Positions 10,461 through 64,000 of a stretch of DNA of 64,000 nucleotides are shown here, piece by piece. The DNA lies in NCBI GenBank assembly GCA_038884575.1, contig JAWABQ010000001.1, forward strand, positions 33,730 through 97,729. The letters are read 5' to 3'. The position numbers and the translations under genes were made by a program. Source of the DNA: Candidatus Woesearchaeota archaeon (GTDB taxonomy: Archaea > Nanobdellota > Nanobdellia > Woesearchaeales > ARS49). Within the stretch, counting starts at the first letter, position 1. The number at the start of each line of letters is the position of its first letter. The notes under the pieces are model-generated. The model ran no database searches, was not told where the DNA came from, and saw only the letters and a list, made by a program, of their open reading frames with translations.

Positions 10461-10463
10461 GAG

Positions 10464-25568: not shown

Positions 25569-27715
25569 GCAATCCAACAATTCCGGCAGACCTTGTACAA
25601 AAATACAAGGAAAGGCTACAGAAGCAGCTTGAGCTTTCTGCAGTCGAGCCGCTGCCTGTTGTAAGCAGGGAATACACTGCATTCAGGCAGGAATCAATTG
25701 CCGCACATGCGAGCCTTTATGAAAAAGGGTGCACGCTGGCAGGAAAAATCCTCAAGATACAGGTGGACCCAAAGCGAGCAGGCCAGCTGCAGGAGTCAAT
25801 TGACATTGCACACCTGGGCATCACCCCTGCAAGCGTCATTGCATTCAGCACCCTGTTCCCGCTCGCATACATGATACTTGGCTGCGTGCTCAGCCTTGCA
25901 TTTGAAACCTCGCTGTTCTTCACCATATTTTTCCTTGCTTCAGGGGTTGCCCTGATGGCTGTGTTAGGCAAATACCCTATATTCCTTGCCAACAACTGGC
26001 GCATGAAGGCAAGCAACCAGATGGTGCTCTGCATATTCTATGTTGTGACATACATGCGCCACACAAGCAACCTTGAGCTCGCAATAGAGTTTGCATCAGA
26101 GCATTTGACCCCTCCGCTTGCCCTTGACCTGAAAAAAGTGCTCTGGGATGTTGAAACCCAGAAGTATGAGAGCGTGAAGGAAAGCCTTGAGATGTACCTT
26201 GAATCGTGGAGGAAGTGGAACAATGAGTTTGTGGAATCATTCCACCTCATCGTAAGCTCGCTTTACGAGACATCAGAGGACAGGAGGCTTTTGCTGCTTG
26301 ACAAGTCGCTTGATGTCATACTTGAGGAGACATACGAAAGGATGCTGCACTATGCCCAGAACCTCAAAGGGCCAATCACAATGCTGCACATGCTTGGCGT
26401 AATCCTGCCCATACTCGGTCTGGTAATCCTGCCGCTTGTTGTCAGCTTCATGGGCGATGTCAAATGGTACCACATCGCAACGCTTTACAACATAATCCTG
26501 CCTCTTGTTGTCTATGTCCTTGGCAGGAACATACTAAGCAAGCGCCCAACAGGCTACGGGGACACAGACCTTGCGGAAATAAACCCTGCGCTGAAAAAAT
26601 ACCGCAACATAATCATAAAGGTTGGAAAAACAGAGCTGCAAATACATCCCATATTCATCTGCGCGCTGGTTGGCGGCCTGTTCCTTTTTGCCGCGCTGCT
26701 TCCTGTAATCCTGCACGCAATCCAGCCTGACCCAAGCTATGACTTTGCCCTGCCGTTCAACTGGAAACTGCTCGAATACCGCACGCACCCAAAGACAGGC
26801 GAGATTATCGGACCGTTCGGAATGGGCGCATCGCTCCTGAGCCTTGCATTCCCGCTCACGCTGGCATTCGGGATAGGGCTTTACTTCATGCTCAGGTCCC
26901 AGAATGTAATCAAGATAAGGGAGCAGGCAAAAAAGCTTGAGGACGAGTTCGCAAGCGCATTGTTCCAGCTGGGAAACAGGCTTGGAGACGGCGTGCCTGC
27001 AGAGATCGCATTCTCAAAAGTCGCAACTGTGATGCCTGACACTGTAAGCGGGAGGTTTTTTGAGGTTGTTGCAACAAACATAGCAAAGCTGGGAATGGGA
27101 GTGAAGGATGCCTTGTTCAACCCGCGCACAGGCGCCCTTGTCTACTTCCCGAGCAACATAATCCAAAGCTCAATGAAAGTGCTTGTCGAGGGCATAAAAA
27201 AGGGACCAATAATCGCTGGGCAGGCATTGCTGAACATCTCAAGGTACATAAAGGAAATCCACAAGGTCAATGAGCGCCTCAGGGACCTGATGGCAGACGT
27301 GATTTCAGACATGAAATCGCAAATCAGCTTCCTGACTCCGGCAATAGCAGGGATTGTTATTGCAATAACAAGCATGATAACATACATCCTTGGGAAGCTG
27401 CAAACAAGCATTGAGCTTACGGCAAGCTCAGAGCTGTCGGCGAGGATAAGCGACATCGCAGACATGTTCAGCATTGGAATCCCCACTTATTACTTCCAGC
27501 TTGTTGTCGGCGTTTATGTCTTTGAGATAATCTACATCCTCACGATAATGGCAAACGGAATTGAGAACGGCGCTGACAAGCTTCAGGAGCGCTACAGCCT
27601 TGGGAACAACCTGATAAAAAGCACAATCCTCTACTGCGGCCTCAGCTTTGTGATGATGATAATTTTCAACCTCATCGCAGGCAAGATAGTTGAAGTCAGC
27701 GGGACTTTTGGCTGA
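25565..27715 (+). CDS. polytopic platform protein (FlaJ/TadC/PilC-like)
   Basis: The start at ATG 25565 overlaps the ATPase stop (ATGA). It is 716 aa with two blocks of TM helices separated by cytoplasmic helical domains, the typical partner arrangement after a FlaI-like ATPase. Confidence 0.7.
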   Translation: MSNPTIPADLVQKYKERLQKQLELSAVEPLPVVSREYTAFRQESIAAHASLYEKGCTLAGKILKIQVDPKRAGQLQESIDIAHLGITPASVIAFSTLFPLAYMILGCVLSLAFETSLFFTIFFLASGVALMAVLGKYPIFLANNWRMKASNQMVLCIFYVVTYMRHTSNLELAIEFASEHLTPPLALDLKKVLWDVETQKYESVKESLEMYLESWRKWNNEFVESFHLIVSSLYETSEDRRLLLLDKSLDVILEETYERMLHYAQNLKGPITMLHMLGVILPILGLVILPLVVSFMGDVKWYHIATLYNIILPLVVYVLGRNILSKRPTGYGDTDLAEINPALKKYRNIIIKVGKTELQIHPIFICALVGGLFLFAALLPVILHAIQPDPSYDFALPFNWKLLEYRTHPKTGEIIGPFGMGASLLSLAFPLTLAFGIGLYFMLRSQNVIKIREQAKKLEDEFASALFQLGNRLGDGVPAEIAFSKVATVMPDTVSGRFFEVVATNIAKLGMGVKDALFNPRTGALVYFPSNIIQSSMKVLVEGIKKGPIIAGQALLNISRYIKEIHKVNERLRDLMADVISDMKSQISFLTPAIAGIVIAITSMITYILGKLQTSIELTASSELSARISDIADMFSIGIPTYYFQLVVGVYVFEIIYILTIMANGIENGADKLQERYSLGNNLIKSTILYCGLSFVMMIIFNLIAGKIVEVSGTFG

Positions 27716-43256: not shown

Positions 43257-43258
43257 CC

Positions 43259-45129: not shown

Positions 45130-45130
45130 G

Positions 45131-52534: not shown

Positions 52535-52606
52535 CTCGTTTTATATGATTTTCCATCCAAAACCCGGATAATTTCCGGATGTAAAAATAAAAAAAATGAA
52601 AAATGA

Positions 52607-54138: not shown

Positions 54139-54170
54139 AAATGCATGTTTGGGACACTATTATATATACC

Positions 54171-55202
54171 CTACTGAGAAGGCGCTGGCGTTGTCGCCTG
54201 CAGTCTTGCCAGCTCTTCCTTGGGATCAGGGTTAAGGAAGACCATCTGGACATTGAACTCAAGCCTGTCAAAGAAAGTGTTCTTTTTTGCTTTTCCGACA
54301 AGCTTCACAATCTGGCCGAGCAATTCTGTCTTGATGGGGTCAAACTGCTCAGGAGTCTGGCGCAATGGAAGAAGCTGGTCAATTGTCCTGCCAAGCAGGC
54401 GCTCTGCCTGCTGGCGGAAAAGCACGCAGCGTATGTTGTCTGTTCCATCATCAAGGAAGACATTCATGACAAATGCAAAATCAGGCTTTACTGCGCCGTG
54501 CTTTTCGCACGTGAAAATTCCAGACCCCTGCTCCTGCTCGCGCGCCCTGCCGTTGCATGTCGGGCAGATTTCAAAAAATCGCGGGTCAAAAACCTGGACA
54601 ATCGTGCCAAGCAATTCAATATTTTCATCTCCATCCTGCAAAGCCTTTATTTCCTTCCTCACTGCAGCAGCCCTTTGCTGTATCTGCCTGACCTCGCCAA
54701 GCGCAATTCCTGCAGGATTGACAATCAGGTGGGCTTTTTCATTTACATGGACTTCAGGATAGCCGCGCTGGTTTTCCTTTGCCAGCCCGCCTGAAACCTT
54801 GACTATGTTACCTATTTCAAGCTTGCTCACCGCCTCCGCCTGCTCCCCCCAGCCAACAACCCTCATGATTCCTGTCTCGTCAGCAACCATGCAGCTTGAC
54901 ACCTTTCCCTCTGTGCCGTCCTGCCTTGAGAAAGTGTTAAGCGGATAGACTGCCTGAACCCTTCCGGCAAACTCAACACTGCGCATCCCTGCATAAACAT
55001 CCTTTATCTTTCCTGAATTTTCAAGAAGCTTTACCCCAAGCTCATTCGCAATTATGTGCGCTGCGCCCTCCTTGCTGATTAATCCTGAGAGCTGCTTGAG
55101 CTTTGCATCAATTTTTTCCTGAATCTGGTCTGGAGAAAGCCCTGTCTTCTGCCCGATTTTCGCGAGCATTTCTTCATATGGAATTCGTATCAGTGTAACC
55201 AC
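54171..55202 (-). CDS. replication protein A-like ssDNA-binding protein (OB folds plus Zn finger)
   Basis: It has N-terminal IPYEEMLAKIGQKTGLSPDQIQEKI, OB-fold blocks and CPTCNGR....FTCEKHG. I chose the start at GTG 55202 because TATA (tttatatcc on the minus strand) lies about 30 nt upstream. ATG 55169 is the alternative. The ORF-track start at 55286 would overlap the upstream gene. Confidence 0.75.
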   Translation of the reverse strand: MVTLIRIPYEEMLAKIGQKTGLSPDQIQEKIDAKLKQLSGLISKEGAAHIIANELGVKLLENSGKIKDVYAGMRSVEFAGRVQAVYPLNTFSRQDGTEGKVSSCMVADETGIMRVVGWGEQAEAVSKLEIGNIVKVSGGLAKENQRGYPEVHVNEKAHLIVNPAGIALGEVRQIQQRAAAVRKEIKALQDGDENIELLGTIVQVFDPRFFEICPTCNGRAREQEQGSGIFTCEKHGAVKPDFAFVMNVFLDDGTDNIRCVLFRQQAERLLGRTIDQLLPLRQTPEQFDPIKTELLGQIVKLVGKAKKNTFFDRLEFNVQMVFLNPDPKEELARLQATTPAPSQ

Positions 55203-55257
55203 CCTCTCTGTTATCCAAAGGAACAGGAACGGATATAAATAGTTTTGGTTTGCGCTG

Positions 55258-56106
55258 TTACTGCGGCGCATAAAGCGCAAAAACAATGTCGCTCATTGTG
55301 CCATAGGGGTTCTTTGCAGGGTTATTTGCGGCTGCTATCAGGTAGTCAGGGTTGTCAGCGCTTCTTGAAACAGTTAACAGCGCAAATGATGACTTTGCGC
55401 ATTCATCAGGTGAATACGCATTCACGCAGTCATAGAAAGCACGCACTTCTTTCTTCAGCAAAGCATAAGCGCTGATTTTTGTTGAAATATTCACAGTAAA
55501 CGACGGCTTGAAGTCATACTCGCCAACAGGAGCCATTGGCATCTGCACTGTTGTCCAGGGGATTGTTATGCCAATAAATTTTGCCATTATCATTTTCGGA
55601 GGCGGCTGAACCAGAACTATTGCAGGCATTATTGCAGTGCCAGTAACAGAATTGTCCTGGACAAATATTTCATAATTGTTCAACGGCAAGATTGCCCCGC
55701 GGTATTTTGCAAGATAAACAGCCATCTGGCCGTTCATAAGCTCGCCAAAAGCATCATAAGGCTGGACAGAGTCAGTGCAGTCAGCGCCGTGCTTTGTCCA
55801 CGCATAAATCTTCCTGCCTTTCTCTATTATTGTGCCGCAGTCATCAGACTTCATGCCCCCGCGCTGCGCAAGAGTGTCAAGCGCCTTGTATGCAGAGAAC
55901 TTTGCAGCCTGGTCAACAAAAAGCAAGGCATTCTCGCCCTGCTGGTATGCCTCAAGAAGCGCGACCTGATATTCCCCAATCCGGACCTCGAAAGGCTCAA
56001 GCTTTGCCGAAAGCCTGATGAAAAGATAAATTACAAGCACAACAACCACAATAACCATTACTGCAGCATAATCAAGCCCCTTTTTGCTGCGAAGCATTTT
56101 CATCAT
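55258..56106 (-). CDS. pilin-like protein (class III signal-type N-terminus)
   Basis: 282 aa with N-terminus MMKMLRSKKG-LDYAAVMVIVVVVLVIYLFI. It is the last gene of a six-gene minus-strand pilin-like operon. Confidence 0.6.
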   Translation of the reverse strand: MMKMLRSKKGLDYAAVMVIVVVVLVIYLFIRLSAKLEPFEVRIGEYQVALLEAYQQGENALLFVDQAAKFSAYKALDTLAQRGGMKSDDCGTIIEKGRKIYAWTKHGADCTDSVQPYDAFGELMNGQMAVYLAKYRGAILPLNNYEIFVQDNSVTGTAIMPAIVLVQPPPKMIMAKFIGITIPWTTVQMPMAPVGEYDFKPSFTVNISTKISAYALLKKEVRAFYDCVNAYSPDECAKSSFALLTVSRSADNPDYLIAAANNPAKNPYGTMSDIVFALYAPQ

Positions 56107-56495
56107 TTCTGCCCCACCTCAAGCCTGACCTTGGCAATCGAGCCGTCATACTTTGGCAGCAAGGCATCAATAGAAGCATCAGGGATGCCAATTTTCCGGC
56201 CTGCAACCAGGCTTGCATCAATGTAAAGCGCAAAATCAGCCTGCGGACCGTACACCGCGCTTACCAGCGGCCCGACACGCGCATAATTGCCGCTGCTGAT
56301 TTCATCCGCAAGCACAGACACCAGCAGGCGGAGCTGGCCTGAAGCCTTCAGCCCTGTGGTGCTTGCAGTGACATCAAATTCAGCCTTTTTATGGAACATC
56401 GACGAGGCAATGAAAAACCCGGCAAGCAAAAGCGCAATTACCCCTGCAGATGCAATAAAAGTTAATGCCCTTCCCATTGCAGCGCGCCTGTTCAT
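56103..56495 (-). CDS. pilin-like protein
   Basis: 130 aa with N-terminus MNRRAAMGRA-LTFIASAGVIALLLAGFFIA. It has 4-nt overlaps on both sides. Confidence 0.55.
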   Translation of the reverse strand: MNRRAAMGRALTFIASAGVIALLLAGFFIASSMFHKKAEFDVTASTTGLKASGQLRLLVSVLADEISSGNYARVGPLVSAVYGPQADFALYIDASLVAGRKIGIPDASIDALLPKYDGSIAKVRLEVGQK

Positions 56496-56980
56496 CTGAA
56501 CCCTCCTGGAGGCACAGGCGCATAAACCTGGTCAATGGTCATAAGCTCCAACATACCTGTATCCTGCACCCATACAGGCCTTGTCTCGACAAAACGCTTG
56601 TAGCGCAAAGGCGACAATGGCACCCATTCATTGTACCTTTCCTCCTGATAATAAGCAGTGTCAGAGCCAAGAGCGAGCTTTACTGCAAGCATCCTTGGAG
56701 TGCCCAAAGTGGTGAATGCGCCTGAAATCACCTGCTTGTCCCAGCCTGCTTTTGAAGGCAGGATTCCAGGATAAGCGCGGTGCGTCAAAGGCGACTGCCA
56801 GCTGGCTTTTGAATAAATGCGCTCTGCAAAAACAGCATTTTCAAGATTGTTTGTCTTTGTGAGCTCGGAAAATATTAATGAGGGGATTGTAACAACAACG
56901 TAAATGACAGCGCCTGTCAAAAAAAGGTAAAATATCCAGAATATCACTGCCTCGCCCAGCTGGGCCTTACGGTCTGGCAT
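56492..56980 (-). CDS. pilin-like protein
   Basis: 162 aa with N-terminus MPDRKAQ-LGEAVIFWIFYLFLTGAVIYVVV. Confidence 0.55.
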   Translation of the reverse strand: MPDRKAQLGEAVIFWIFYLFLTGAVIYVVVTIPSLIFSELTKTNNLENAVFAERIYSKASWQSPLTHRAYPGILPSKAGWDKQVISGAFTTLGTPRMLAVKLALGSDTAYYQEERYNEWVPLSPLRYKRFVETRPVWVQDTGMLELMTIDQVYAPVPPGGFR

Positions 56981-57908
56981 TTTTCACCCCTTGCGCTATC
57001 CTTAAAGCAACAGCCTCCTGCTTGTCAACAGAATCAAGCAGCTGCAAAGTGCCAAATTCAAGCAGTATTCCAACCTTTCCTTTTGAAAGGGCGTCATCAT
57101 CCCTTGATGCGGTATGCTCTGGGTTTATTGGGATAACAGCAGCGCCGATTACGCCTATATTCTGGCCCTCCCAGTGGCGCAGCAATGAGTTTGAAACCTC
57201 GCATGCAATCCTCTGGCTCTGCCTGAGAAGTTCAGGGGGATTTTCGCCATTCACATAGGCCTTGATGTACGTGGCATCTGGCGCAGTGCTGCCAATCCTA
57301 AGAACCACCAAAACCTCGCTGCCCTCAAAAATCTGCCCCTTGAGCACTGATGCAATGTTCTGCTCTGCCTGCATTTCAGGTCCACTGGCATGAGCAGGCT
57401 GTGCAACAGGCTTTCCCGCAATTCCTGCTGTGCCGCATGCAAGCACATTGCGCACATAAGTGTCTGGCTTTTTGTTGCGGTCATAGACATATATTGTACT
57501 GCCTTCCTTGTAAAAATCAGGGACAACCAAGACATCCCTGAATGAAAGTTCTGCCTCCTGGATTGAAACAGAAGGGTCAGGAGTGATATAAAACATGCCA
57601 GGGCTGCGGTCTTGGGGCCCGGACAGCACGCTGACAGAAGTCTTGTTGAACCTGAATGTGTAGTTTGTCCTGAACTTTGGTATCAGCGGAGGGGTGTAAA
57701 TTATATGGGCGCTGCCAGGCTGGGGCATTGCAGGAATTGTATCAATAAGCAGTGCAAGGTCTGTGGCAAGGAAGCGCTTCTCAAACGATGTCTGCTCATC
57801 AAGCCCGTGGATGAACCACATCAGGGAAATAAGCACGCAGACAGCAACAAAAGTCTCAAAAGCTGGATGAAGGACAAAACCAGTCCACGCGCCTTTTTTT
57901 GACATCAC
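56967..57908 (-). CDS. pilin-like protein with a larger C-terminal domain
   Basis: 313 aa with N-terminus MMSKKGA-WTGFVLHPAFETFVAVCVLISLMWFI. Confidence 0.55.
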   Translation of the reverse strand: MMSKKGAWTGFVLHPAFETFVAVCVLISLMWFIHGLDEQTSFEKRFLATDLALLIDTIPAMPQPGSAHIIYTPPLIPKFRTNYTFRFNKTSVSVLSGPQDRSPGMFYITPDPSVSIQEAELSFRDVLVVPDFYKEGSTIYVYDRNKKPDTYVRNVLACGTAGIAGKPVAQPAHASGPEMQAEQNIASVLKGQIFEGSEVLVVLRIGSTAPDATYIKAYVNGENPPELLRQSQRIACEVSNSLLRHWEGQNIGVIGAAVIPINPEHTASRDDDALSKGKVGILLEFGTLQLLDSVDKQEAVALRIAQGVKNARP

Positions 57909-58372
57909 GAGCAGGCATCTCCAATATGCAGCTCATTTGCCTTCCGGCATATTGTCACTGCGGTTCCTGCGCCTGCATATTCCTTTCCAAGGCTCTCGCC
58001 CTTTGGAGCGCAGATTCCTGAAGCGCAATCATTTGTTATTTTCGGCATTTGCGCGCATTTGACCTCCGTATTATCCACCACGCAGACACACGGCATCATG
58101 CTGCATTCCTTCTGCGAATTGCCGGTTCCAAACATTTGGATAAGGAACCTGCTTTTTGCTGCAGTGATTACCTGAAGCTTTTCATCAGGCTGGAGGTTCA
58201 TAAGCTCTGCTACCACTCTGTCCCTGTCGCGCACAATGTCAGAGGGCTTTTCCTTCCAGAATATTTCGTAAATACCATAGCCTATTGCAACAATAATGAG
58301 CGAAATAAAGACTGCTCTCAGCAGCTTGCCTGCATCCAAGACCTGCTCTGCAGCCTGACCTCTTTTGTCCAT
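57905..58372 (-). CDS. pilin-like protein
   Basis: The start at ATG 58372 gives MDKRGQ-AAEQVLDAGKLLRAVFISLIIVAIGYGIY (GQxxE-type). The ORF-track extension would overlap the upstream pilin gene. Confidence 0.6.
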   Translation of the reverse strand: MDKRGQAAEQVLDAGKLLRAVFISLIIVAIGYGIYEIFWKEKPSDIVRDRDRVVAELMNLQPDEKLQVITAAKSRFLIQMFGTGNSQKECSMMPCVCVVDNTEVKCAQMPKITNDCASGICAPKGESLGKEYAGAGTAVTICRKANELHIGDACS

Positions 58373-58409
58373 GACGACAAAAGCCAAGAAAACAGGGTTA
58401 TAAATGTTT

Positions 58410-58709
58410 CTATGTGGCCTCGCAGCAAACACTTTTTGGAGCCTGGCAGTCCTGCCACGAGCCTGAAAGCGGCTGGTAGTTTGCAGGACACTTTCCTGGC
58501 TCTGCACACTGCCTGCTGCGCAATGCAAAGATTGTCTCGCAGATATCCTTTGCCCTTGCCTCTTTCTCTGCCTCGCCTGTGATGTTCACATACTTCTGCG
58601 AGCCCTTTTGCAGCTGGGTGCGCACAATAAGTATGAGTAGGACAAGGACAACAAGCCCAAGGACCGCAAGAATGATTGTATTAATCGAAAGACCCTGTCC
58701 TCTTTTCAT
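58410..58709 (-). CDS. small type IV pilin-like protein (candidate major pilin)
   Basis: 99 aa with N-terminus MKRGQG-LSINTIILAVLGLVVLVLLILIV and a Cys-containing C-terminus (..CAEPGKCP...CQAPKSVCCEAT). It is the first gene after a divergent TATA-rich promoter. Confidence 0.7.
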   Translation of the reverse strand: MKRGQGLSINTIILAVLGLVVLVLLILIVRTQLQKGSQKYVNITGEAEKEARAKDICETIFALRSRQCAEPGKCPANYQPLSGSWQDCQAPKSVCCEAT

Positions 58710-58786
58710 AAAGCCTGCACATGCAAGCCATTATTTAAACCTTTTCTCCAGTAAGATTTAAATAGCAAACAAGGAACAAACTTTTC

Positions 58787-59413
58787 ATGAGCAAAAAAGT
58801 CGCGGTTGCCATAATTCTGATTGCCGCAATCATAATTGTCCTTGCGCTTGTCCTGCTTTTGACAAGGCCAAAGCCTGCTGTTTTCAGCGATGACCCAAAG
58901 GACTGGGTTGTCTCAGAAGGAAGGAACAGGACAGTGGATGTTGTCATTGCAACAAAAGGGGACAGCCACATGGATGCAAACGGCCAGCAGTATGACACAG
59001 CCACCATCGGCACGGTTTTTGCCTCGCAGGGATGGTACAGAGGGGTGCAGTTCAGGAACAGTTATGCGCAGAACGGCAAAACACTCATGCGCGTCGGCCC
59101 CTCAATGATTCCAAATGATGGCGTGCTTGACGGCTTCATAATGGAAAAGCTCGGGCAGGACGGTCCAAAGCTCTATGTCTTCCTTGACGAGGACTGGAAA
59201 AAGTCATTCCCAAGGGCTGCAGTCTATTGGGGCAAAAACTACCAGCTTGACATGCCTTTTGACTTCACAAAAAGCGTTGCAGACGGCATTTACCTTAACA
59301 TCGTGCCAGATGACCCGGAAAGGTTTGAGAACAATTATGCAATCCACCTGGGCGGAGCCTGGGCAGGGGACTTGCGCGACGACGAGACTTCTACACTAGT
59401 TGCATTAACCTAG
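58787..59413 (+). CDS. N-terminally anchored hypothetical protein
   Basis: 208 aa beginning MSKKVAVAIILIAAIIIVLALVLLL. It converges on, and overlaps by 4 nt, the giant gene. Confidence 0.6.
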   Translation: MSKKVAVAIILIAAIIIVLALVLLLTRPKPAVFSDDPKDWVVSEGRNRTVDVVIATKGDSHMDANGQQYDTATIGTVFASQGWYRGVQFRNSYAQNGKTLMRVGPSMIPNDGVLDGFIMEKLGQDGPKLYVFLDEDWKKSFPRAAVYWGKNYQLDMPFDFTKSVADGIYLNIVPDDPERFENNYAIHLGGAWAGDLRDDETSTLVALT

Positions 59414-62400
59414 AAGCATCCTGCTATGCTCGCAGTATGGTGGGGCCATGCAGCACACATCTCAAGTATGTATGCAGTTGCCATTCCTGCAACATCAACT
59501 GCAGTGGCAACAAATAATGCAGTAGCGCCAGCAGCAGTTCCGGCTGTCATTCCGGTAAGGGCAAGTCCTGCAGCAATCGAGGCAATTGTCAGTGTGGTGT
59601 CAACTGCCTTTACAAGCCCGCTCTTTGCAGTAAAGCAATAATTATTGCCATTATTGTACGAGGCATCAATGTTGCGGGGAATGATTATGAATGCAGGAAT
59701 TGTGGTTGTTAAATCAAGCCTTGTGCCGCGGTTTGACTGGGTTGGCGAAGGAGCAGCGGATTCATGGCAAAGCTTGACAGCAGTTGCAGTATCGCCGTTG
59801 TAATAATGATAAGTGAGTGAGCTTTCATTGGCTGTATCAATAAACCACTTTGTGTTGTACACCTTGAATGCAAGCATTCTGGCAAAATATGCCATCTCTG
59901 CAGAATCCCTGTTCGCAGCATACTCTTTCTGCACAGCCTTGTCCAGCTCATCCCAATTGATTTCAAGCTTTTCATAAGGCGCATTTGGGTTTTTCCACGG
60001 GCATGCAATGCCTGGCTTTAACTCGCATTTTTTGAATATAAACAAGTCAATAAAGGGGTGCGCATTTGGATTGAAGATATGAGCTCCGGCAGATGCTCCA
60101 GAGCCAAGGCTTGTCCACCAGTCCTCAAGAGTGTAATAAAGCACTGAGTTTTCATCCCTGCCTGGAGCCAAGCTTATGTCGCCGCCAAGCGGATATGCAG
60201 GGCTAAAGTCCTGCACAGAAAGCTTGTTTAGAAGCGCTGTCCTAAAGTCAATAAACTGCTCTGGCGTAAGATTCTTTACCTGGTCGAATCCTGCGCGGCG
60301 CAAGTCAACCCCCTTCAGCCCTGCTGCAAGAGTAAACGGCTGGACTTTCAGGCTCCTGACAAATGTTTCAGGGTCAGTGAACACTATTTCGCCAAATTCC
60401 TTAAAGGCAAGCGGGTCTTCCCTTATTGCAGTGCGGATGCCGTCAAAAGGCGAGTCCCAGTAAGGACCGCGGCTCTGGCTCCAGAATCCCTTTGAGCCGT
60501 CAATCAAGTAACTTACTTTCTGCTTTGAATCCATCTTGTCCCAGGCGCGCACTATTGTTATATTGCCCTTGCCTGCAATCGGCTCTATGCCCTGCAGGCG
60601 CACAATGCCCTTGGCGTCAGTAAAGTTGTAGATGTACTCATTGTGCCAGAAAGCACAGCCGCGATATGTTGCCAGCATATCATAGTCTGCCTTGCACGGG
60701 CTTGCTGCAAAGAACCTCACCCTTGAGTCATCCTCCTTGAGCATTTCAGAATAATAATGGTCAGAGCCAGGGGTGTCAAAAGTGTATTTCTTTGTCAGCT
60801 GGGGCGCAAGCGGCTTTATCAAGCCATAAGTGTTCTTGCCAACTCCAATGAACTTCTGGTTCTTGCTGTCCTCAAGCGCCATGAAATATGAAAGCCCCAC
60901 CAGTATCGGGAAATAATGGTCGCGGACAAATTTTGCGCACGTCCCAACCGTGCCTGTGGCAAGGCCTGCTAAAAGTGCGCCGCCAGCGCCAACAGCAACC
61001 CCTGCCTCTGGCTTGACTTTTGAAGCTTCTGCGCCCAAACCAACCCCAACGCCTGCAGGAATGACGCACCCAAGAGACCGTGCCTGGTTTTTGATGAACT
61101 CCTTTAGCATTTGGGGCGTGGTACCTGCAGGCAATGGCCCGCCTGCTTTCTGAATTGTTCCTGCCCACAAGCCCTTGCCCCATGTCTTTGCACTGAGCAG
61201 GTCACGCATTTCATCAACCTGAACGCCATATGCAGTGGGCTTTCCTGCATCATCAACACTCATCAGCAGCTTGCTCAGTGCGCTTTCAGAAGAATCATCA
61301 AGCAAGGCCTGGAAATTGATGTTGCCCAAATCATCAACATAAGAGCTTGCAAGCTCATCAGCCTGCTTTATCATTGTCTCATACATTCCAGGGTCTGTCT
61401 TTTTCAGCGCCTTAAGCCCCTTGACAGCATCTGTCAATGGCTTTTCCAGAGTGCCTTCCTTCAGCAATGCCTTTATTCCCTTCTTGAAGCCAACACGCCG
61501 CATCAGCAGCCCGACTGTTGAAAGATCTGCCTGCCCAAGCGCCCTGATTGCAGCGTCTTCTGCATTAACAGCAGATGAGCGCAAATAGTTTGCAACATCA
61601 TTTGCGCTTGCCAGCCCTGGTTTGCCAGCAGGCATTTCAGCCATTTTGATAAGCTCGTCAACCTGGGAGTCAGTCATGGCAATCTTTGCATCGCCAGCAA
61701 TTGTCTTGATTTCCCTGCGCAGCAATTCCTTTCCAGCATCTGTGAAAGTCCCGCTTACTGGAATTCTTGCCTCATCAAAAAGGCTTGGATTAAATAAATT
61801 GCCTTTTACAATTTTTGCTTCCGCAATATTAATGCTTTCTATGTTATTCTTTATACCTTGTATCCTTGACATTAGTCTGTTTGCAACATCATCAATGATT
61901 GATTCTGCAGGAAGCGAATTAATGCCTTTCATTGAAACCTTAACCAGGTCGCGGAGGCCATCTGTCAAAAAGCCAAGCTTTTCCAAATTATCAAGATATC
62001 CCTGGATTTTTATTGCGCGCGCCTGTTTCTGGGCATCAGAGAGCTTGTCAAACCCGACCAGTAATCTCTGTATGTTTTTTGAGGTTCTTGTCACAGCATC
62101 GCTTATCTTGACGACTTTCTTGAGAAGGGCAAAAGCCGCCTTGCCGCCAAGCGGAAGCATGGTAAGCGCCCCCTGCACGCCAAGAACAACAAAAAACACA
62201 GTCTTTGAGGAATACTGCCATGCCTTTTCCTCACCCTCTGGGAATTTTTCATAATACGCAAGGAACTTTGGGTCTCCTGAGCCGACAATAAGCTCTTCTG
62301 CCACAGATACCTTTTGCGGAAGCTCAAAAGAGCGGACTGTGCACTCCAACCTTTTGGCATGGTAAGCGCTTGCACTTAGCGGGCAAGCTAAAAGGTCTCG

Positions 62401-63210
62401 CGTAAGCAATACCTTGTTGCCTAAAAGCCTGTTTTCTGCACACAGGTAAAAGTCCTTGGCGCCTGATGCCAGCAGGCTCTCAATGTTCCATTCATAATCA
62501 CGCTTCCAATAGCTTGCCATGTCAGCGCCTAATGGACCGCTTGCAGAAAGCGCGTCACGATATTCTGCCATGGTAATTCCTGCCAGTCCTGATTTTGGAA
62601 CTGTTACCTGGCTGCAATATACGTTGTTGTAATTGTTTTCCTTGAATTTCTGGTAGCACCGCAGGGTTTCATCAACTATCTGGTTTATTGCATTTTGCTT
62701 GTTGCTGTCAAGCGTGATAGGGCGGAGAATGCTTGATGTTTCAGTGCATTCAACGCAGGTTGTGCCATAGGCAATGTCACCATTGCATGCTGGTGTCTGC
62801 GCTGCCATGCCTGTAAGTGCAACCACCTTGCCGGTTGCGGGCTGTGCAGGGGCTTTTGCAATATCTGCAGGAGAAGGCTGGGCAGGCGCAGCCCCTGTCT
62901 TGAGGATTGTGAACCCATCAGGGCACAGCGAAGGTGTCATTTCCCAGCCTGGCTTTCCTGCTGCCATACTGTTGATTGCGCAAACAAGCGCCTTCATTGA
63001 GTTAATCGCAATAAGCTCGTCATCCTCAATAGGAGAAACGCCTGGCACAAACTCCTTTGAAGGAAACTTTCCTGCAAGCACTCCGCGCTCGCCAAAGATT
63101 TTTTCCTTTGCAAACTGGTAGCCGACATTCCCAATGCCATAAATCAGCAAAAGGATTACGATAGAGCCGAGTATTATTGTGATGATTGCCGCGCCTTTTT
63201 TGCCTACCAT
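59410..63210 (-). CDS. giant (1266 aa) membrane protein with a pilin-like class III signal N-terminus
   Basis: The N-terminus is MVGKKGA-AIITIILGSIVILLLIYGI. It is followed by a Cys-containing ectodomain and further hydrophobic stretches near aa 340-365 and 745-800 and at the C-terminus (...TIASIAAGLALTGMTAGTAAGATALFVATAVDVAGMATAYILEM...). The frame is uninterrupted. No known domain recognised. Confidence 0.75.
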   Translation of the reverse strand: MVGKKGAAIITIILGSIVILLLIYGIGNVGYQFAKEKIFGERGVLAGKFPSKEFVPGVSPIEDDELIAINSMKALVCAINSMAAGKPGWEMTPSLCPDGFTILKTGAAPAQPSPADIAKAPAQPATGKVVALTGMAAQTPACNGDIAYGTTCVECTETSSILRPITLDSNKQNAINQIVDETLRCYQKFKENNYNNVYCSQVTVPKSGLAGITMAEYRDALSASGPLGADMASYWKRDYEWNIESLLASGAKDFYLCAENRLLGNKVLLTRDLLACPLSASAYHAKRLECTVRSFELPQKVSVAEELIVGSGDPKFLAYYEKFPEGEEKAWQYSSKTVFFVVLGVQGALTMLPLGGKAAFALLKKVVKISDAVTRTSKNIQRLLVGFDKLSDAQKQARAIKIQGYLDNLEKLGFLTDGLRDLVKVSMKGINSLPAESIIDDVANRLMSRIQGIKNNIESINIAEAKIVKGNLFNPSLFDEARIPVSGTFTDAGKELLRREIKTIAGDAKIAMTDSQVDELIKMAEMPAGKPGLASANDVANYLRSSAVNAEDAAIRALGQADLSTVGLLMRRVGFKKGIKALLKEGTLEKPLTDAVKGLKALKKTDPGMYETMIKQADELASSYVDDLGNINFQALLDDSSESALSKLLMSVDDAGKPTAYGVQVDEMRDLLSAKTWGKGLWAGTIQKAGGPLPAGTTPQMLKEFIKNQARSLGCVIPAGVGVGLGAEASKVKPEAGVAVGAGGALLAGLATGTVGTCAKFVRDHYFPILVGLSYFMALEDSKNQKFIGVGKNTYGLIKPLAPQLTKKYTFDTPGSDHYYSEMLKEDDSRVRFFAASPCKADYDMLATYRGCAFWHNEYIYNFTDAKGIVRLQGIEPIAGKGNITIVRAWDKMDSKQKVSYLIDGSKGFWSQSRGPYWDSPFDGIRTAIREDPLAFKEFGEIVFTDPETFVRSLKVQPFTLAAGLKGVDLRRAGFDQVKNLTPEQFIDFRTALLNKLSVQDFSPAYPLGGDISLAPGRDENSVLYYTLEDWWTSLGSGASAGAHIFNPNAHPFIDLFIFKKCELKPGIACPWKNPNAPYEKLEINWDELDKAVQKEYAANRDSAEMAYFARMLAFKVYNTKWFIDTANESSLTYHYYNGDTATAVKLCHESAAPSPTQSNRGTRLDLTTTIPAFIIIPRNIDASYNNGNNYCFTAKSGLVKAVDTTLTIASIAAGLALTGMTAGTAAGATALFVATAVDVAGMATAYILEMCAAWPHHTASIAGCF

Positions 63211-63371
63211 GGCAATTGTTCCAGGAAACTAACCTGCTTTTGCCCTGACTTGGCAATAATCCAAAAGCCCAAAAACAGGACAAAAATGCCGATAATCAGG
63301 GCTATCACATAAACCCATCCCGGCAGGTCTCCTTTCCTGCTTTTCCACATCGAATAAAGTGTTCGTATCAT
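63204..63371 (-). CDS. small pilin-like/membrane protein (55 aa)
   Basis: Not in the ORF track. My translation is MIRTLYSMWKSRKGDLPGWVYVIALIIGIFVLFLGFWIIAKSGQKQVSFLEQLPW*. It starts 2 nt after the upstream stop and overlaps the giant gene's start by 7 nt. Confidence 0.45.
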   Translation of the reverse strand: MIRTLYSMWKSRKGDLPGWVYVIALIIGIFVLFLGFWIIAKSGQKQVSFLEQLPW

Positions 63372-63372
63372 C

Positions 63373-64000
63373 TTAGTCGATTATCAGCGTGCATCCTATC
63401 CCGCTTGCAGGGTCAACGATATCCGTCTGGGTATAAGGGACAAGGAAAAGCATGTTATAGTCTTTTGGTTCAGGCGTTGTTATGCCAAAGGTTGCAGGAA
63501 TGCTTTGCAAATAACCTTTTACTGCGTGCTCATTGACCCGCGCATAAACCACAGCAAGGCCATTTGCATCGACTGAAAACTCATAATGGGGCACATCAGG
63601 CTGGCCTTCTGCAAGGAAATTCAAATAATCCTTGCTTGTCAATGGGACAGGGTTTGCCAGCATCCATTCATCCATTGAGGTTATTTTTGGCTTTGCCTTG
63701 AAGGCATTAATCACCTCAGGCATGAACTTTATGTGCGCGCACAAAATGCAGTTCACAGGCGGCCTTCCAAATGTGCCGGCAAAATTCTGAACTGCAGTTT
63801 CAGGATTGCGCTCAGTCTTGGACCAGGGAAAATCATAAAGCCTCCACCATTCGTCAAACAATGGCATTTTGCCCTTGAAGACTTTTTCCCAGCAGCTGAC
63901 CATTTCATCTGCAACAATTTTGTCAACAGCAAATTCGTTAAGCACAGCCTCATTGTCAGCCTTGTCAGGGGTAAATGTCCTGATAACATTCTGGTATTGT
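63373..64000 (-). CDS. hypothetical protein, C-terminal part (5' end beyond the right edge)
   Basis: The frame stays open upstream of the ORF-track GTG at 63945 all the way to the window edge (...QYQNVIRTFTPDKADNEAVLNEFAVDK...). No family recognised. Confidence 0.55.
   Translation of the reverse strand, partial: QYQNVIRTFTPDKADNEAVLNEFAVDKIVADEMVSCWEKVFKGKMPLFDEWWRLYDFPWSKTERNPETAVQNFAGTFGRPPVNCILCAHIKFMPEVINAFKAKPKITSMDEWMLANPVPLTSKDYLNFLAEGQPDVPHYEFSVDANGLAVVYARVNEHAVKGYLQSIPATFGITTPEPKDYNMLFLVPYTQTDIVDPASGIGCTLIID

What the first reader, a model, noticed from the sequence alone, without database searches (positions are those of the whole stretch)
55258..64000. Cluster of eight pilin-like ORFs including a 1266-aa giant protein with a prepilin-type N-terminus
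**Seen in sequence.**
- Eight minus-strand ORFs begin with a short basic segment ending in [KR][KR]G/A, followed by about 20 hydrophobic residues:
  - MKRGQG-LSINTIILAVLGLVVLVLL
  - MDKRGQ-AAEQVLDAGKLLRAVFISLIIV
  - MMSKKGA-WTGFVL..
  - MPDRKAQ-LGEAVIFWIFYLF
  - MNRRAAMGRA-LTFIASAGVIALLL
  - MMKMLRSKKG-LDYAAVMVIVVVVL
  - MVGKKGA-AIITIILGSIVILLL
  - ..SRKGD-LPGWVYVIALIIGIFVL
- Six of them form a tightly overlapping operon (58709 down to 55258, with overlaps of 4-14 nt).
- The 1266-aa protein combines this N-terminus with a Cys-containing ectodomain, two internal hydrophobic regions and a hydrophobic C-terminus. I could recognise no domain in it.

**Established knowledge.** This N-terminal architecture is the archaeal class III signal processed by prepilin peptidases (PibD/FlaK/EppA).

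**Inference.**
- The locus encodes a surface filament with an unusually large pilin-like or tip/anchor component. In a DPANN-type episymbiont this would be a candidate host-attachment apparatus.
- No prepilin peptidase is present in the window.
- The only ATPase and platform pair lies 30 kb away.
Basis: partly seen in the sequence, partly recalled or inferred. Interest (0 to 1): 0.7.

Follow-up and report, generated by a model that had tools for sequence, protein, structure and literature searches.

The report
Woesearchaeal pilin-like surface-apparatus gene cluster
This is a conserved gene cluster of a tiny DPANN archaeon (Woesearchaeota) that encodes about ten prepilin-like surface proteins, among them a 1266-residue protein from a large uncharacterised family and a decayed cell-wall amidase, and it is most likely a pilus-like cell-contact apparatus.

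Summary
Eight minus-strand ORFs between 55258 and 63371 start with M-x(1-10)-[KR][KR][GA] followed by a hydrophobic helix. No other real gene in the 64 kb window does. A ninth such gene runs off the window end.

The window comes from a Candidatus Woesearchaeota MAG. The whole cluster, in the same gene order and with the giant ORF intact, recurs in at least 13 other Woesearchaeota/Nanoarchaeia contigs.

New findings:
- **Giant family.** The giant belongs to a family with 528 representatives. Twelve of 15 sampled members carry the same N-terminal motif. The family has no Pfam, PDB-sequence or Foldseek match.
- **Giant topology.** It looks membrane-anchored at several points, so it is probably not an ordinary filament subunit.
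- **Short pilin candidates.** The 99-aa protein belongs to a multi-copy family of short proteins with a highly conserved N-terminal helix. These are the best major-pilin candidates.
- **Pseudo-amidase.** The 313-aa protein is homologous to N-acetylmuramoyl-L-alanine amidases. The active site is intact in deeper relatives. The window copy lacks the Glu and second His zinc ligands.
- **DNA genes.** RPA always follows the last pilin-like gene, usually with YdjM and RadA after it.

A PilB/PilC-like pair is present at 23-28 kb. No prepilin peptidase is in the window. Processing and filament formation remain inferred.

Verdict: a new variant of a known kind (archaeal type IV filament locus).

The parts
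63373..64000 (-). C-terminal approximately 209 codons of the 'up' protein. The gene continues beyond the window end. Orthologues are 290-340 aa with a prepilin-like N-terminus (e.g. MRKQGA|IDISIGTLLSLAVVG).
   Evidence: The frame is open to the window end.
63204..63371 (-). s55: mini-protein of 48-55 aa, (MIRTLYS)MWKSRKG|DLPGWVYVIALIIGIFVLFLG. It consists of one helix plus a short tail. It overlaps the giant's start by 7 nt.
   Evidence: It is conserved directly upstream of the giant in L001, L003, L007 and L010 and L018. It was called as 48 aa in L016.
59410..63210 (-). Giant protein, 1266 aa. Its parts in order:
- N-terminus MVGKKG|AAIITIILGSIVILLL.
- Cys-rich domain (residues about 60-330; 10 Cys).
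- Conserved motifs FELPQ and DPKFLAYYEKFPxGEExAW.
- Conserved hydrophobic segment (about 335-356).
- Cys-free helical region (about 360-740).
- Second Cys-containing domain (about 790-1200; motifs RFFAASPCKxDY and YNNGNNYCF).
- Hydrophobic C-terminal helices with a conserved Asp.
- C-terminal CxxWPxH..C tail.
   Evidence: - Sequence and alignment.
- Family size: 528 representatives at E<=1e-3 and 88 at E<=1e-30.
- N-termini of sampled members.
- No Pfam, NCBIfam or PDB-sequence hit.
- AlphaFold model: pLDDT 67, pTM 0.64.
- No fold match.
- Topology statistics.
58787..59413 (+). opp208: a conserved 203-227-aa partner of the giant. It has an ordinary N-terminal signal anchor (MSKKVAVAIILIAAIII) and a Cys-free ectodomain of about 175 aa (motifs SDDPKDW, DGIIEGFI, FLDEDWK, DDPERF). 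It is convergent with the giant and overlaps it by 4 nt.
   Evidence: It lies next to the giant in all 13 related loci that extend past the giant's 3' end (L010 stops inside the giant), on either strand. It has no Pfam or PDB hit.
58710..58786 (.). Divergent 77-nt intergenic region with two TTTAAA(T) TATA-like boxes. Each lies about 25-30 nt upstream of one of the two start codons (opp208 and p99).
   Evidence: Read directly from the sequence. The promoter function is inferred.
58410..58709 (-). p99: a short pilin-like protein, MKRG|QGLSINTIILAVLGLVVLVLLILIV, with a small 6-Cys head. It belongs to a multi-copy family (2-5 paralogues per locus in relatives). It is the best candidate for a major filament subunit.
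   Evidence: A 27-member alignment gives the consensus M.KK[AG]QGLPxNTIIIAxLxLxVLVVLxxIFTG followed by C..C..CC. Pfam hits are only weak: Flp1_like in 2 members at E 8e-4 and Arch_flagellin in 1 member at E 0.02.
57905..58372 (-). p154: a 155-aa pilin-like protein, MDKRG|QAAEQVLDAGKLLRAVFISLIIVAIGYGIY, with 8 Cys.
   Evidence: Orthologues are in L001, L003, L007 and L008.
56967..57908 (-). p313 (the same protein as NCBI QXM31_00925): a prepilin-like N-terminus, a middle domain and a degenerate Amidase_3 (N-acetylmuramoyl-L-alanine amidase) domain. The window clade lost about 35-50 residues that include the Glu zinc ligand. The SxH motif has become LRI, so the protein is probably catalytically dead.
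   Evidence: - Orthologues in L004, L006 and L009 hit PF01520 at 69, 47 and 49 bits against a cut-off of 27.
- The family profile matches CwlV 1jwq (E 6e-8), AmiC 4bin and AmiB 3ne8.
- hhalign of the window clade against the amidase clade gives 99.4% probability, E 5e-22, over the full length.
- Motif comparison.
- Identity with QXM31_00925.
56492..56980 (-). p162: a 162-aa pilin-like protein, MPDRKA|QLGEAVIFWIFYLFLTGAVIYVV.
56103..56495 (-). p130: a 130-aa pilin-like protein, MNRRAAMGRA|LTFIASAGVIALLL.
55258..56106 (-). p282: a 282-aa pilin-like protein, MMKMLRSKKG|LDYAAVMVIVVVVL. It has a conserved N-terminal module of about 170 aa (IGxxQxxLLxAxxxGxxxLLYxDQSA..). In relatives the same position holds proteins of 494-933 aa with added C-terminal modules.
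   Evidence: Alignment. The L012 orthologue (933 aa) carries a 3D domain, PF06725, E 1.8e-11. The L017 orthologue (726 aa) has a faint fn3 hit.
54171..55170 (-). RPA-type single-stranded-DNA-binding protein (OB fold plus Rep_fac-A_C). It always lies directly downstream of the p282-family gene and in the same direction. In the window it is preceded by its own TATA-like box (ATTTATAT at about 55233-55240). It is linked to the cluster by position; a functional link is not shown.
   Evidence: Pfam hit. Linkage seen in 10 related loci, including the rearranged L017. Sequence read.
23295..27715 (+). PilB/ArlI-type secretion ATPase (757 aa, 23295-25568) and TadC/PilC-like platform protein (729 aa, 25526-27715). 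This is the only candidate assembly motor in the window.
   Evidence: T2SSE E 1.8e-14. T2SSF E 0.0016, below Pfam's cut-off. No pilin-like genes lie next to the pair.

Best explanation
The locus is the substrate and structural gene set of a type-IV-filament-like surface apparatus specific to Woesearchaeota and their relatives.

**Proposed working (inferred).**
1. The nine proteins with the M-x-[KR][KR]-[GA] N-terminus are inserted into the membrane by their N-terminal helix. A prepilin (A24) peptidase encoded elsewhere in the genome trims them after the G/A.
2. The PilB/PilC-like pair at 23-28 kb polymerises the short, multi-copy p99-type subunits, and perhaps the 48-aa one-helix protein, into a pilus or a short pseudopilus.
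3. The five co-directional, overlapping genes p154-p313-p162-p130-p282 supply a minor-subunit set that primes or caps the fibre and carries effector modules.
4. One effector module is derived from a murein amidase. It is still intact in deeper relatives and decayed here. The last gene of the set carries variable C-terminal modules in relatives.
5. The 1266-aa protein and its constant partner opp208 form a membrane-anchored scaffold or adhesin at the base or side of the fibre, not a normal filament subunit.

**Proposed function (inferred).** Contact with another cell. The ancestral target was a peptidoglycan-walled bacterium.

**Shown.** The motif, its conservation, the synteny, the family sizes, the amidase homology and its decay, and the presence of the ATPase and platform.

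**Inferred.** Cleavage, polymerisation, placement of the subunits, and the target.
For: - **Exclusive motif.** The motif occurs only in this cluster within the window. It is absent from the other signal peptides of the window.
- **Conservation of the G/A.** The G/A is kept in orthologues of all nine families. In the co-located signal-anchor protein opp208 the same position varies freely. This argues that the G/A is selected as a recognition site.
- **Short n-regions.** In 107 of the 135 motif-selected proteins from 14 related loci plus the window, the n-region is only 4-6 residues. The +1 residue is Gln in 36%. By my recollection this resembles substrates of the Methanococcus EppA peptidase.
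- **Major-pilin candidate.** The p99 family has a near-invariant N-terminal helix, small variable Cys heads and 2-5 paralogues per locus. Major pilins show this pattern.
- **Operon structure.** Start/stop overlaps of 4, 14, 4 and 4 nt join p154 through p282.
- **Synteny.** The order is conserved across relatives in which the giant is only about 25% identical.
- **Assembly motor.** T2SSE ATPase and T2SSF-like platform are in the same genome.
- **Amidase_3 homology of p313.**
- **Modular last gene.**
- **Literature, pilin sets.** ATPase/TadC pairs in archaea are known to serve pilin sets encoded elsewhere, and such loci often hold large signal-peptide proteins (PMC4858521).
- **Literature, lifestyle.** Woese- and Pacearchaeota are proposed to attach to or attack bacterial walls through large murein-hydrolase proteins (PMC8204110, PMC9723730).
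Against: - No Pfam or NCBIfam pilin, archaellin or class III model is matched. No PDB pilin is matched by the p99 profile.
- Only 13 of 135 proteins, and only the giant within the window, pass the FlaFind-type regex as I remember it. Most have G, P or polar residues at +2 to +6. In p154 and p313 the hydrophobic core starts 11-14 residues after the G/A.
- No A24 peptidase is in the window, and the rest of the genome could not be searched.
- No structure prediction was available for the small proteins, so a pilin fold is untested.
- The giant's model shows no pilin head and has no structural neighbour.
- The amidase domain is degenerate in this genome, so a murein-directed activity cannot be claimed for the window itself.
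Confidence: 0.6

Rival explanations
1. These are ordinary Sec-inserted, N-terminally anchored membrane and surface proteins. They would form a lineage-specific envelope or cell-contact complex (with the giant as a scaffold or S-layer-like protein). There would be no prepilin cleavage and no filament. The K-K-G/A start would be a lineage habit of signal anchors.
For: - There are no matches to pilin or class III models.
- Most fail the remembered FlaFind regex.
- The cluster is not next to the ATPase/platform pair, and no peptidase was seen.
- The giant appears to be held in the membrane at several points.
- opp208 in the same cluster is a plain signal anchor.
Against: - The G/A after the basic pair is conserved in nine different families and across distant orthologues. 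It is not conserved in opp208, nor in the window's other signal peptides.
- The p99 family's near-invariant N-terminal helix and its multi-copy state are hard to explain for a simple anchor.
- Mini-proteins made of one helix (36-55 aa) are typical of pilin-like subunits.
Confidence: 0.2
2. The cluster is a competence-like DNA-uptake pseudopilus. The pilin-like set retracts DNA to the membrane. The giant multi-anchored protein, and possibly the YdjM membrane hydrolase, take DNA across. The adjacent RPA and RadA receive the single strand.
For: - RPA follows the last pilin-like gene co-directionally in the window and all 10 related loci with enough sequence, usually with YdjM and RadA after it.
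- In L017 the whole second operon is inverted relative to the giant, and RPA and YdjM moved with it.
- In several loci the gap to RPA is only about 3-21 nt.
- By my recollection (not checked here), type IV-like pili are needed for natural transformation in Methanococcus, and DPANN archaea lack nucleotide synthesis.
Against: - RPA and RadA are housekeeping genes that every archaeon needs.
- In the window RPA has its own TATA-like box and an 88-nt gap.
- No ComEC, ComEA or DprA-like domain was found in any cluster protein.
- Inherited gene order within one order-level lineage can explain most of the linkage.
Confidence: 0.1
3. The cluster is a type-II-secretion-like or bindosome-like display system. 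A short pseudopilus, not a long pilus, pushes out or presents enzymes and binding proteins that carry class III signals. The amidase-type subunit, the modular last protein and the giant would be examples.
For: - Several members are enzyme- or effector-like rather than plain structural subunits.
- Class III signals on non-pilin substrate-binding proteins are widespread in archaea (bioRxiv 10.64898/2026.04.22.720090).
- The giant model has a flexible linker rather than a pilin head after the N-terminal helix.
Against: - Multi-copy short subunits with a conserved helix suggest a real polymer.
- No substrate-binding-protein domain or transporter is present in the cluster.
- This rival overlaps the best explanation and differs mainly in fibre length.
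Confidence: 0.1

Closest known systems
Archaeal type IV pilus loci with minor-pilin sets and large signal-peptide proteins (Makarova, Koonin and Albers 2016, PMC4858521; Sivabalasarma and Albers 2026 preprint)
   Same: - A cluster of several class-III-type proteins of different sizes.
- Conserved cysteines.
[quoted passage not shown]
- An ATPase/TadC pair that may be encoded elsewhere in the genome.
   Different: - None of the proteins matches the Pfam or NCBIfam pilin or adhesin models (arCOG profiles were not available to search). No DUF2341/PilY-like domain is present.
- The number of pilin-like genes is unusually high: at least 9 here, and 15-20 in the extended locus of relatives.
- The giant family, opp208 and the amidase-derived subunit are not described in those surveys. 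Neither paper holds the term 'Woesearchaeota' in connection with such a cluster.
Methanococcus maripaludis Epd pili and EppA substrates (DUF361 / Class_IIIsignal)
   Same: A short basic leader ending in K-G with Gln at +1 (from my recollection of this family). There are several minor pilins besides one small major pilin.
   Different: There is no Pfam Class_IIIsignal hit. Positions +2 to +6 read G-L-P/S-x-N rather than the I-S-x-E-type sequence I recall. No EppA gene was seen.
Bacterial modular type IV pilins (Streptococcus sanguinis PilB/PilC, CofB, GspK; PMC8179133)
   Same: A pilin-type N-terminus carries a grafted functional module. Here p313 carries an Amidase_3-type module, and the p282 family carries variable C-terminal modules, including a 3D domain in L012.
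   Different: - The leader is the archaeal type, not the bacterial G|FTLxE (IPR012902) motif.
- No amidase module is mentioned in that paper's text; its supplementary list was not read.
- The module is decayed in the window genome.
Minor-pilin/PilY1 tip complex of type IVa pili and the GspH-I-J-K tip of type II secretion
   Same: An operon of four to five differently sized pilin-like genes sits next to a protein of more than 1000 aa.
   Different: - There is no sequence or fold similarity.
- The large protein itself has a prepilin-like N-terminus.
- The large protein also has further hydrophobic segments, so it is probably membrane-held.
Amidase_3 family (CwlV, AmiA/B/C; PF01520)
   Same: The p313 family is homologous across the whole catalytic domain. 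The DxGHG, E and SxH motifs and the catalytic LLE.G are present in L004, L006, L009 and L011 and in P0159, P0161 and P0164.
   Different: It is fused to a prepilin-like N-terminus in an archaeon without murein. In the window clade the Glu and second His zinc ligands are lost (pseudo-enzyme).
Large murein-transglycosylase proteins of Woese- and Pacearchaeota (fam00969, PMC8204110; GH23 proteins, PMC9723730)
   Same: The lineages are the same. Both are large extracellular or envelope proteins thought to mediate contact with bacterial walls. Both are part of a lineage-specific set of mostly unknown protein families.
   Different: The giant here has no SLT/GH23 or any other known domain. The murein link in this cluster comes from a different enzyme class (amidase) on a different, small subunit.

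Membership tests
Archaeal class III (prepilin-type) signal peptide substrates / type IV pilin-like proteins | A short positively charged n-region with K/R at -2 and G/A (or S) at -1 (criterion as stated in PMC3387779) | tested here: met
   All eight window ORFs and their orthologues meet it. The n-region is 4-6 residues in 107 of 135 cluster proteins.
Archaeal class III (prepilin-type) signal peptide substrates / type IV pilin-like proteins | A hydrophobic helix of about 20 residues starting at or just after the cleavage site | tested here: met
   The hydrophobic window starts 0-2 residues after the G/A in 100 of 135 proteins. In p154 and p313 it starts 11-14 residues later.
Archaeal class III (prepilin-type) signal peptide substrates / type IV pilin-like proteins | Recognition by existing predictors or models (FlaFind-type motif; Pfam Class_IIIsignal, Pilin_N, Arch_flagellin; NCBIfam) | tested here: not met
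   There are no significant Pfam or NCBIfam hits. The FlaFind regex as I remember it ([KRDE][GA][ALIFQMVED][ILMVTAS]x3) is passed by 13 of 135 proteins, and in the window only by the giant. The original paper was not available, and FlaFind itself was not run.
Archaeal class III (prepilin-type) signal peptide substrates / type IV pilin-like proteins | Cleavage by an A24 prepilin peptidase encoded in the same genome | not testable with these tools
   No Peptidase_A24 hit in any ORF of 200 aa or more in the window.
Archaeal class III (prepilin-type) signal peptide substrates / type IV pilin-like proteins | A secretion ATPase (PilB/ArlI type) and a polytopic platform protein (TadC/PilC/ArlJ type) in the genome | tested here: met
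   T2SSE E 1.8e-14 at 23295-25568. T2SSF-like, weak (E 0.0016, below the cut-off), at 25526-27715.
Archaeal class III (prepilin-type) signal peptide substrates / type IV pilin-like proteins | Pilin fold: a long N-terminal alpha-helix packed on a beta-sheet head | tested here: inconclusive
Its model (pLDDT 67) shows a low-confidence linker after the membrane helix and no pilin head. No pilin appears among the Foldseek hits. The small proteins were not modelled.
Amidase_3 (PF01520, N-acetylmuramoyl-L-alanine amidase), for p313 at 56967-57908 | Homology to the Amidase_3 domain | tested here: met
   Orthologues score 47-69 bits against a cut-off of 27. The profile matches CwlV at E 6e-8. The window clade against the amidase clade gives hhalign 99.4%, E 5e-22. 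The window protein alone gives no Pfam hit.
Amidase_3 (PF01520, N-acetylmuramoyl-L-alanine amidase), for p313 at 56967-57908 | The zinc ligands His (GHG), Glu and His (SxH) | tested here: not met
   In the window copy PAHA replaces DxGHG, the Glu-bearing segment is deleted, and VLRIG replaces SLHIG. The motifs are intact in L004, L006, L009, L011, P0159, P0161 and P0164.
PilY1 / DUF2341-type pilus tip adhesins and S-layer proteins, for the giant | A recognisable PilY1 beta-propeller, DUF2341, S-layer or other adhesin domain | tested here: not met
   No Pfam or NCBIfam hit for the giant or for five long family members. No PDB sequence hit. Best Foldseek E-value is 3.0 in PDB and 0.42 in BFVD.
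Bacterial modular type IV pilins (IPR012902 N-terminus plus extra module) | The bacterial prepilin motif G|F/M-T-L-x-E | tested here: not met
   The N-termini are of the archaeal K-K-G/A type. No N_methyl or IPR012902-type hit.

The most novel reading that the evidence does not exclude
The extended locus is a cell-breaching and uptake machine of wall-less, nucleotide-dependent Woesearchaeota. In this reading:
- A type-IV-like pseudopilus carries tip subunits with murein-cutting modules: an amidase, and a 3D domain in some lineages.
- The fibre opens a bacterial wall.
- The giant multi-anchored protein of the 528-representative family, together with opp208, forms the membrane conduit or docking scaffold.
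- The invariably adjacent RPA, YdjM and RadA genes handle imported DNA.

The giant family would then be a new class of membrane component of type IV filament systems, and the first candidate for an archaeal DNA or cytoplasm-uptake port.
Probability: 0.1. Interest if true: 0.9.

Novelty: new variant of a known kind. Interest (0 to 1): 0.6.

Why it matters
No Woesearchaeote has been cultured, to my knowledge. How these very abundant, reduced archaea hold on to or exploit partner cells is unknown.

- **Concrete candidates.** The cluster gives a conserved set of candidate genes: major-subunit candidates, a minor-subunit operon, a giant membrane-anchored protein family with no known relative, and a constant partner protein. 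These can be searched for in metatranscriptomes, metaproteomes and cryo-ET data.
- **Bacterial partners.** One subunit family descends from a murein amidase that is intact in deeper lineages. This is independent support for the idea that some Woesearchaeota interact with peptidoglycan-walled bacteria rather than with archaea.
- **Annotation gap.** Current pilin models (Pfam, NCBIfam, FlaFind-type patterns) miss a whole lineage-specific repertoire of prepilin-like proteins. Surveys of archaeal type IV filament systems probably undercount DPANN.

Tried and rejected
- **Pfam and NCBIfam on all ten cluster proteins.** Nothing significant.
- **Word-indexed homology search with the giant.** It found only 5 proteins, and a profile of them found fewer, which suggested a tiny family. 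The exhaustive HMM search corrected this to 528 representatives.
- **Failed attempts at that HMM search.** Two attempts failed on length limits. I trimmed the N- and C-terminal hydrophobic ends to fit.
- **AlphaFold with 5 sequences.** Useless at pLDDT 39. With 40 family members it reached pLDDT 67 and pTM 0.64.
- **Foldseek of the giant model.** No match against PDB or BFVD. The model could not be cut into domains, and no AlphaFold DB library was available.
- **Paralogy of the two modules in relatives.** I asked whether the upstream module (adhesin plus 171/362/162/160/642 aa) and the one in the window (154/313/162/130/282 aa) are paralogous. hhalign found similarity only in the N-terminal helices, so paralogy is not supported. 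The first run timed out.
- **Profiles against PDB sequences.** The p99, p282 and opp208 families gave only transmembrane-helix or chance hits.
- **3D domain.** The domain found in the L012 member of the p282 family is an insertion of that member only. It is not a family feature and is absent from the window protein.
- **Three multi-pass membrane proteins at 19964-21778.** I considered them as a hidden prepilin peptidase. They gave no A24 hit and no GxGD-type motif on inspection.
- **Bacterial promoter/terminator scan.** Uninformative for an archaeon.
- **FlaFind paper.** The original paper could not be read, so the exact pattern is from memory.
- **Foreign island.** Not supported. GC is 0.48-0.50 in the cluster against 0.46-0.52 across the window.

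Full report
**1. What is in the sequence**

The window is archaeal. It encodes RadA, RPA, an RFC-like AAA+ clamp-loader subunit, aminoacyl-tRNA synthetases and OapB/OapC. One cluster protein is identical to NCBI 'MAG: hypothetical protein QXM31_00925 [Candidatus Woesearchaeota archaeon]'.

Between 55258 and 64000 the minus strand carries the genes below; opp208 interrupts them on the plus strand.

| Label | Coordinates | Strand | Length |
|---|---|---|---|
| up | 63373 to beyond 64000 | - | cut by the window end |
| s55 | 63204-63371 | - | 48-55 aa |
| giant | 59410-63210 | - | 1266 aa |
| opp208 | 58787-59413 | + | 208 aa |
| p99 | 58410-58709 | - | 99 aa |
| p154 | 57905-58372 | - | 155 aa |
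| p313 | 56967-57908 | - | 313 aa |
| p162 | 56492-56980 | - | 162 aa |
| p130 | 56103-56495 | - | 130 aa |
| p282 | 55258-56106 | - | 282 aa |

- s55 overlaps the giant's start by 7 nt.
- The giant and opp208 converge and overlap by 4 nt.
- p99 and p154 are separated by 37 nt.
- The junctions from p154 to p282 overlap by 4, 14, 4 and 4 nt.
- The 77-nt divergent spacer between opp208 and p99 holds two TTTAAA(T) boxes, each about 25-30 nt upstream of one start codon.
- GC content matches the rest of the window.

**2. Is the N-terminal pattern real?**

I scanned all 2204 start/ORF combinations of the window. The test was [KR][KR][GA] within the first 25 residues, followed within 15 residues by a 16-aa hydrophobic window.

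- Only the eight ORFs of the finding passed, plus one internal false start in a glycosyltransferase gene.
- Genuine exported or membrane proteins elsewhere in the window begin MKRLLML.., MKWTAW.., MRTRIIV.. or MVRRQTY.. and lack the G/A.
- opp208 serves as an internal control. It has an N-terminal anchor, but the residue after its K-K is V, W, A, I or K across twelve orthologues.
- In contrast, all nine pilin-like families keep G or A there in distant orthologues.
- Across 14 related loci plus the window, 135 proteins carry the motif. The n-region is 4-6 residues in 107 of them, and +1 is Gln in 36%.

Caveats:
- None of the proteins matches a Pfam or NCBIfam pilin, archaellin or class III model.
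- The FlaFind-type pattern as I remember it is passed by only 13 of 135 proteins. I could not obtain the original paper.
- The criterion quoted in PMC3387779 is met: a basic residue at -2, with -1 and +1 being decisive.

**3. Conservation and extent**

The giant's word-indexed search gave only five proteins. Its neighbourhoods in a JGI metagenome and in an NCBI Woesearchaeota MAG showed the same gene order, including RPA, YdjM and RadA downstream.

- A scan of GTDB species genomes found 11 loci. All are Woesearchaeota or Nanoarchaeia MAGs; two carry a 'Methanosarcinales' label from an automated binning project.
- Two more distant family members sit in the same arrangement.
- The consensus order is: 2-5 short p99-type genes, a 36-45-aa one-helix gene, up, s55, giant, opp208 (either strand), p99, p154, p313, p162, p130, p282.
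- Further upstream, where the contigs extend that far (at least seven of the related loci), lies a second module. It has a larger adhesin-like protein of at least 1500 aa (faint Big_13 and TSP3 hits) followed by four pilin-like genes. That region lies beyond the window end.
- Profile comparison did not support paralogy between the two modules beyond the N-terminal helices.
- The giant ORF is intact in every locus where the contig covers it whole.

**4. The short subunits**

p99 belongs to a family of 85-125-aa proteins. The N-terminus is nearly invariant: M.KK[AG]QGLPxNTIIIAxLxLxVLVVLxxIFTG. The heads are small and variable with conserved cysteines, and there are several paralogues per genome.

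This is the behaviour expected of major pilins, whose N-terminal helices form the fibre core. The alignment places the likely cleavage site after K-R-G or K-K-A, with Gln at +1.

**5. The amidase-derived subunit**

Pfam found nothing in the window's p313. Its orthologues in L004, L006 and L009 hit Amidase_3 at 47-69 bits over the full domain.

- A profile of nine orthologues matches the solved amidases CwlV, AmiC, AmiB and AmiA (E 6e-8 to 4e-3).
- The window clade aligns end to end with the amidase-bearing clade: hhalign 99.4%, E 5e-22.
- Database relatives about 30% identical to the window protein over 96-99% of its length carry PF01520.
- Those relatives keep DP[AS]HG, the Glu helix and SLHIG. 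They also share the prepilin-like start MFDSKRG|EALDLLMHPAFVIF...
- The window clade (301-317 aa) has lost 35-50 residues that include the Glu ligand. SLH has changed to LRI, VKI or IKL. It keeps the LLE.G motif.

The window protein is therefore a pseudo-amidase on a prepilin-like stem. Woese- and Pacearchaeota have been proposed to bind or degrade bacterial walls through large transglycosylase proteins (PMC8204110, PMC9723730). Neither paper mentions pili or pilins. In the papers I searched I found no description of an amidase module on an archaeal pilin-like protein.

The last gene of the operon is also modular. It has a conserved N-terminal module of about 170 aa. In relatives the C-terminal extensions bring the protein to as much as 933 aa, including a 3D domain in one case and a faint fn3 hit in another.

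**6. The giant**

An exhaustive HMM search found 528 representatives at E<=1e-3, 327 at E<=1e-10 and 88 at E<=1e-30. Most are 850-2000 aa.

- Twelve of 15 sampled members begin M..[KR][KR][GA] plus a hydrophobic helix. Thirteen of the 15 end with hydrophobic helices followed by a WPxH/WPxP-type motif.
- No Pfam domain was found, even in the longest members.
- There was no PDB sequence hit.
- With 40 family members AlphaFold gave pLDDT 67 and pTM 0.64. The confident parts are an alpha/beta domain (protein residues about 146-330), a beta-rich domain (about 794-890) and several helical blocks.
- Foldseek found nothing in PDB (best E 3.0) or BFVD (best E 0.42).

Family statistics bear on topology:

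| Region | Cys per 100 aa | Other feature |
|---|---|---|
| N-terminal domain | 2.95 | Cys counts mostly even |
| Central helical region (about 330 aa) | 0.12 | essentially Cys-free |
| C-terminal domain | 1.77 | Cys counts mostly even |

- The segment after the GEExxW motif is moderately hydrophobic. Its median 19-aa Kyte-Doolittle score is 1.75, and 68% of members reach 1.6 or more.
- That segment has acidic residues before it (K+R 1.5, D+E 3.0 in 15 aa) and basic residues after it (K+R 3.45, D+E 0.5). This is the signature of an out-to-in membrane helix.
- So the route by which the chain would return to the outside is unclear.
- The C-terminal helices carry a conserved Asp and often a Cys pair around WPxH.

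I conclude that the giant is held in or at the membrane at more than one point. It is unlikely to be lifted into a fibre like an ordinary pilin. Whether its centre is cytoplasmic remains open.

**7. Machinery**

A T2SSE-type ATPase (757 aa) and a weakly T2SSF-like 729-aa membrane protein lie at 23295-27715. No pilin-like gene is beside them. In archaea such pairs are thought to serve pilin sets encoded elsewhere (PMC4858521). No A24 peptidase was found in any ORF of 200 aa or more. The rest of the genome could not be searched.

**8. An unexpected linkage**

In the window and all ten related loci with enough downstream DNA, the p282-family gene is followed in the same direction by RPA, usually then by YdjM and RadA.

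- In L017 the second operon is inverted relative to the giant, and RPA and YdjM moved with it.
- In several genomes the gap to RPA is only about 3-21 nt.
- In the window the gap is 88 nt and contains an ATTTATAT box, so independent transcription is likely here.

This may be inherited gene order. It is also the basis for the speculative DNA-uptake reading.

**9. Verdict**

- The interpretation 'class III signal proteins forming a surface apparatus of a DPANN archaeon' is the best-supported one (0.6). Cleavage and polymerisation are inferred, not shown.
- The 'giant pilin' is better described as a giant prepilin-like, multiply anchored membrane protein of a large unknown family.
- Compared with known archaeal type IV filament loci this is a new variant. 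It has lineage-specific families invisible to current models, an amidase-derived subunit, a constant giant/opp208 pair and a fixed link to RPA.

Noticed in passing
window 51524-55170 (RadA 51524-52534, YdjM 53683-54138, RPA 54171-55170, all minus strand); also L001, L003, L004, L007, L008, L009, L012, L013, L014, L017: RPA always follows the last pilin-like gene in the same direction, usually with YdjM and RadA after it. The linkage survives an inversion of the operon in L017. Gaps to RPA range from about 3 to 88 nt. In the window RPA has its own TATA-like box.
   Followed up: partly
L001:1-5922, L003:1-6002, L007:17-5708, L009:4947-6999, L010:92-6091, L017:1-5693, L018:2-4164 (outside the window): At least seven related loci, where the contig extends far enough upstream, carry a second module. 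It has an adhesin-like protein of at least 1500 aa (2786 aa in L017; faint Big_13 and TSP3 hits) followed by four pilin-like genes (about 160-170, 345-362, 150-165 and 160-167 aa). In L001, L003, L007 and L010 a further protein of about 600-640 aa follows. No paralogy with the window module could be shown beyond the N-terminal helices.
   Followed up: partly
L012:13609-16410 and L017:18357-20537: The protein at the p282 position is 933 aa in L012, with a 3D domain (PF06725, E 1.8e-11; an MltA/Rpf-type murein-cleaving fold). In L017 it is 726 aa with a faint fn3 hit. The last gene of the operon is a variable, modular protein.
   Followed up: partly
window 59410-59600 (C-terminus of the giant) and family members P0002-P0015: The giant family ends with hydrophobic helices that carry a conserved Asp (..A.D.GS..). 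These are followed by a CxxWPxH...C or WPNH tail. No function can be assigned to this.
   Followed up: no
window 4584-5570 (-) and 6149-7303 (-): A GGDEF diguanylate-cyclase domain protein (E 1.3e-43) lies near a DHH/DHHA1 phosphoesterase. By my recollection, cyclic-di-GMP signalling genes are uncommon in archaea.
   Followed up: no
window 10077-10847 (-): Origin-associated proteins OapC and OapB sit side by side, next to a GTPase. A replication origin may be nearby.
   Followed up: no
window 19964-21778 (+): Three consecutive multi-pass membrane proteins (196, 217 and 185 aa) look paralogous: all share a D(V/I)(V/I)(L/F)PF(L/V)(L/F).. start of the first helix. They have no family assignment and lie about 1.5 kb upstream of the secretion ATPase. 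Two coiled-coil proteins (21795-23018, minus strand) lie between them and the ATPase.
   Followed up: partly
window 39745-48081 (-): A run of envelope-related genes, which may be the cell-surface or glycosylation locus:
- a PMT_2-type glycosyltransferase;
- a 697-aa protein with a Sec-type signal and a weak TraF/thioredoxin-like hit;
- a 210-aa protein;
- a GT2 glycosyltransferase;
- two unassigned proteins of 482 and 501 aa with Sec-type signals.
   Followed up: no
window 7805-8758 (+): A MazE/AbrB plus PhoU-domain protein (317 aa). A MazE-domain protein of similar size (291 and 304 aa) sits between the two pilin modules in L001 and L003. In the window this similar protein lies 47 kb away from the cluster; homology between them was not tested.
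   Followed up: no
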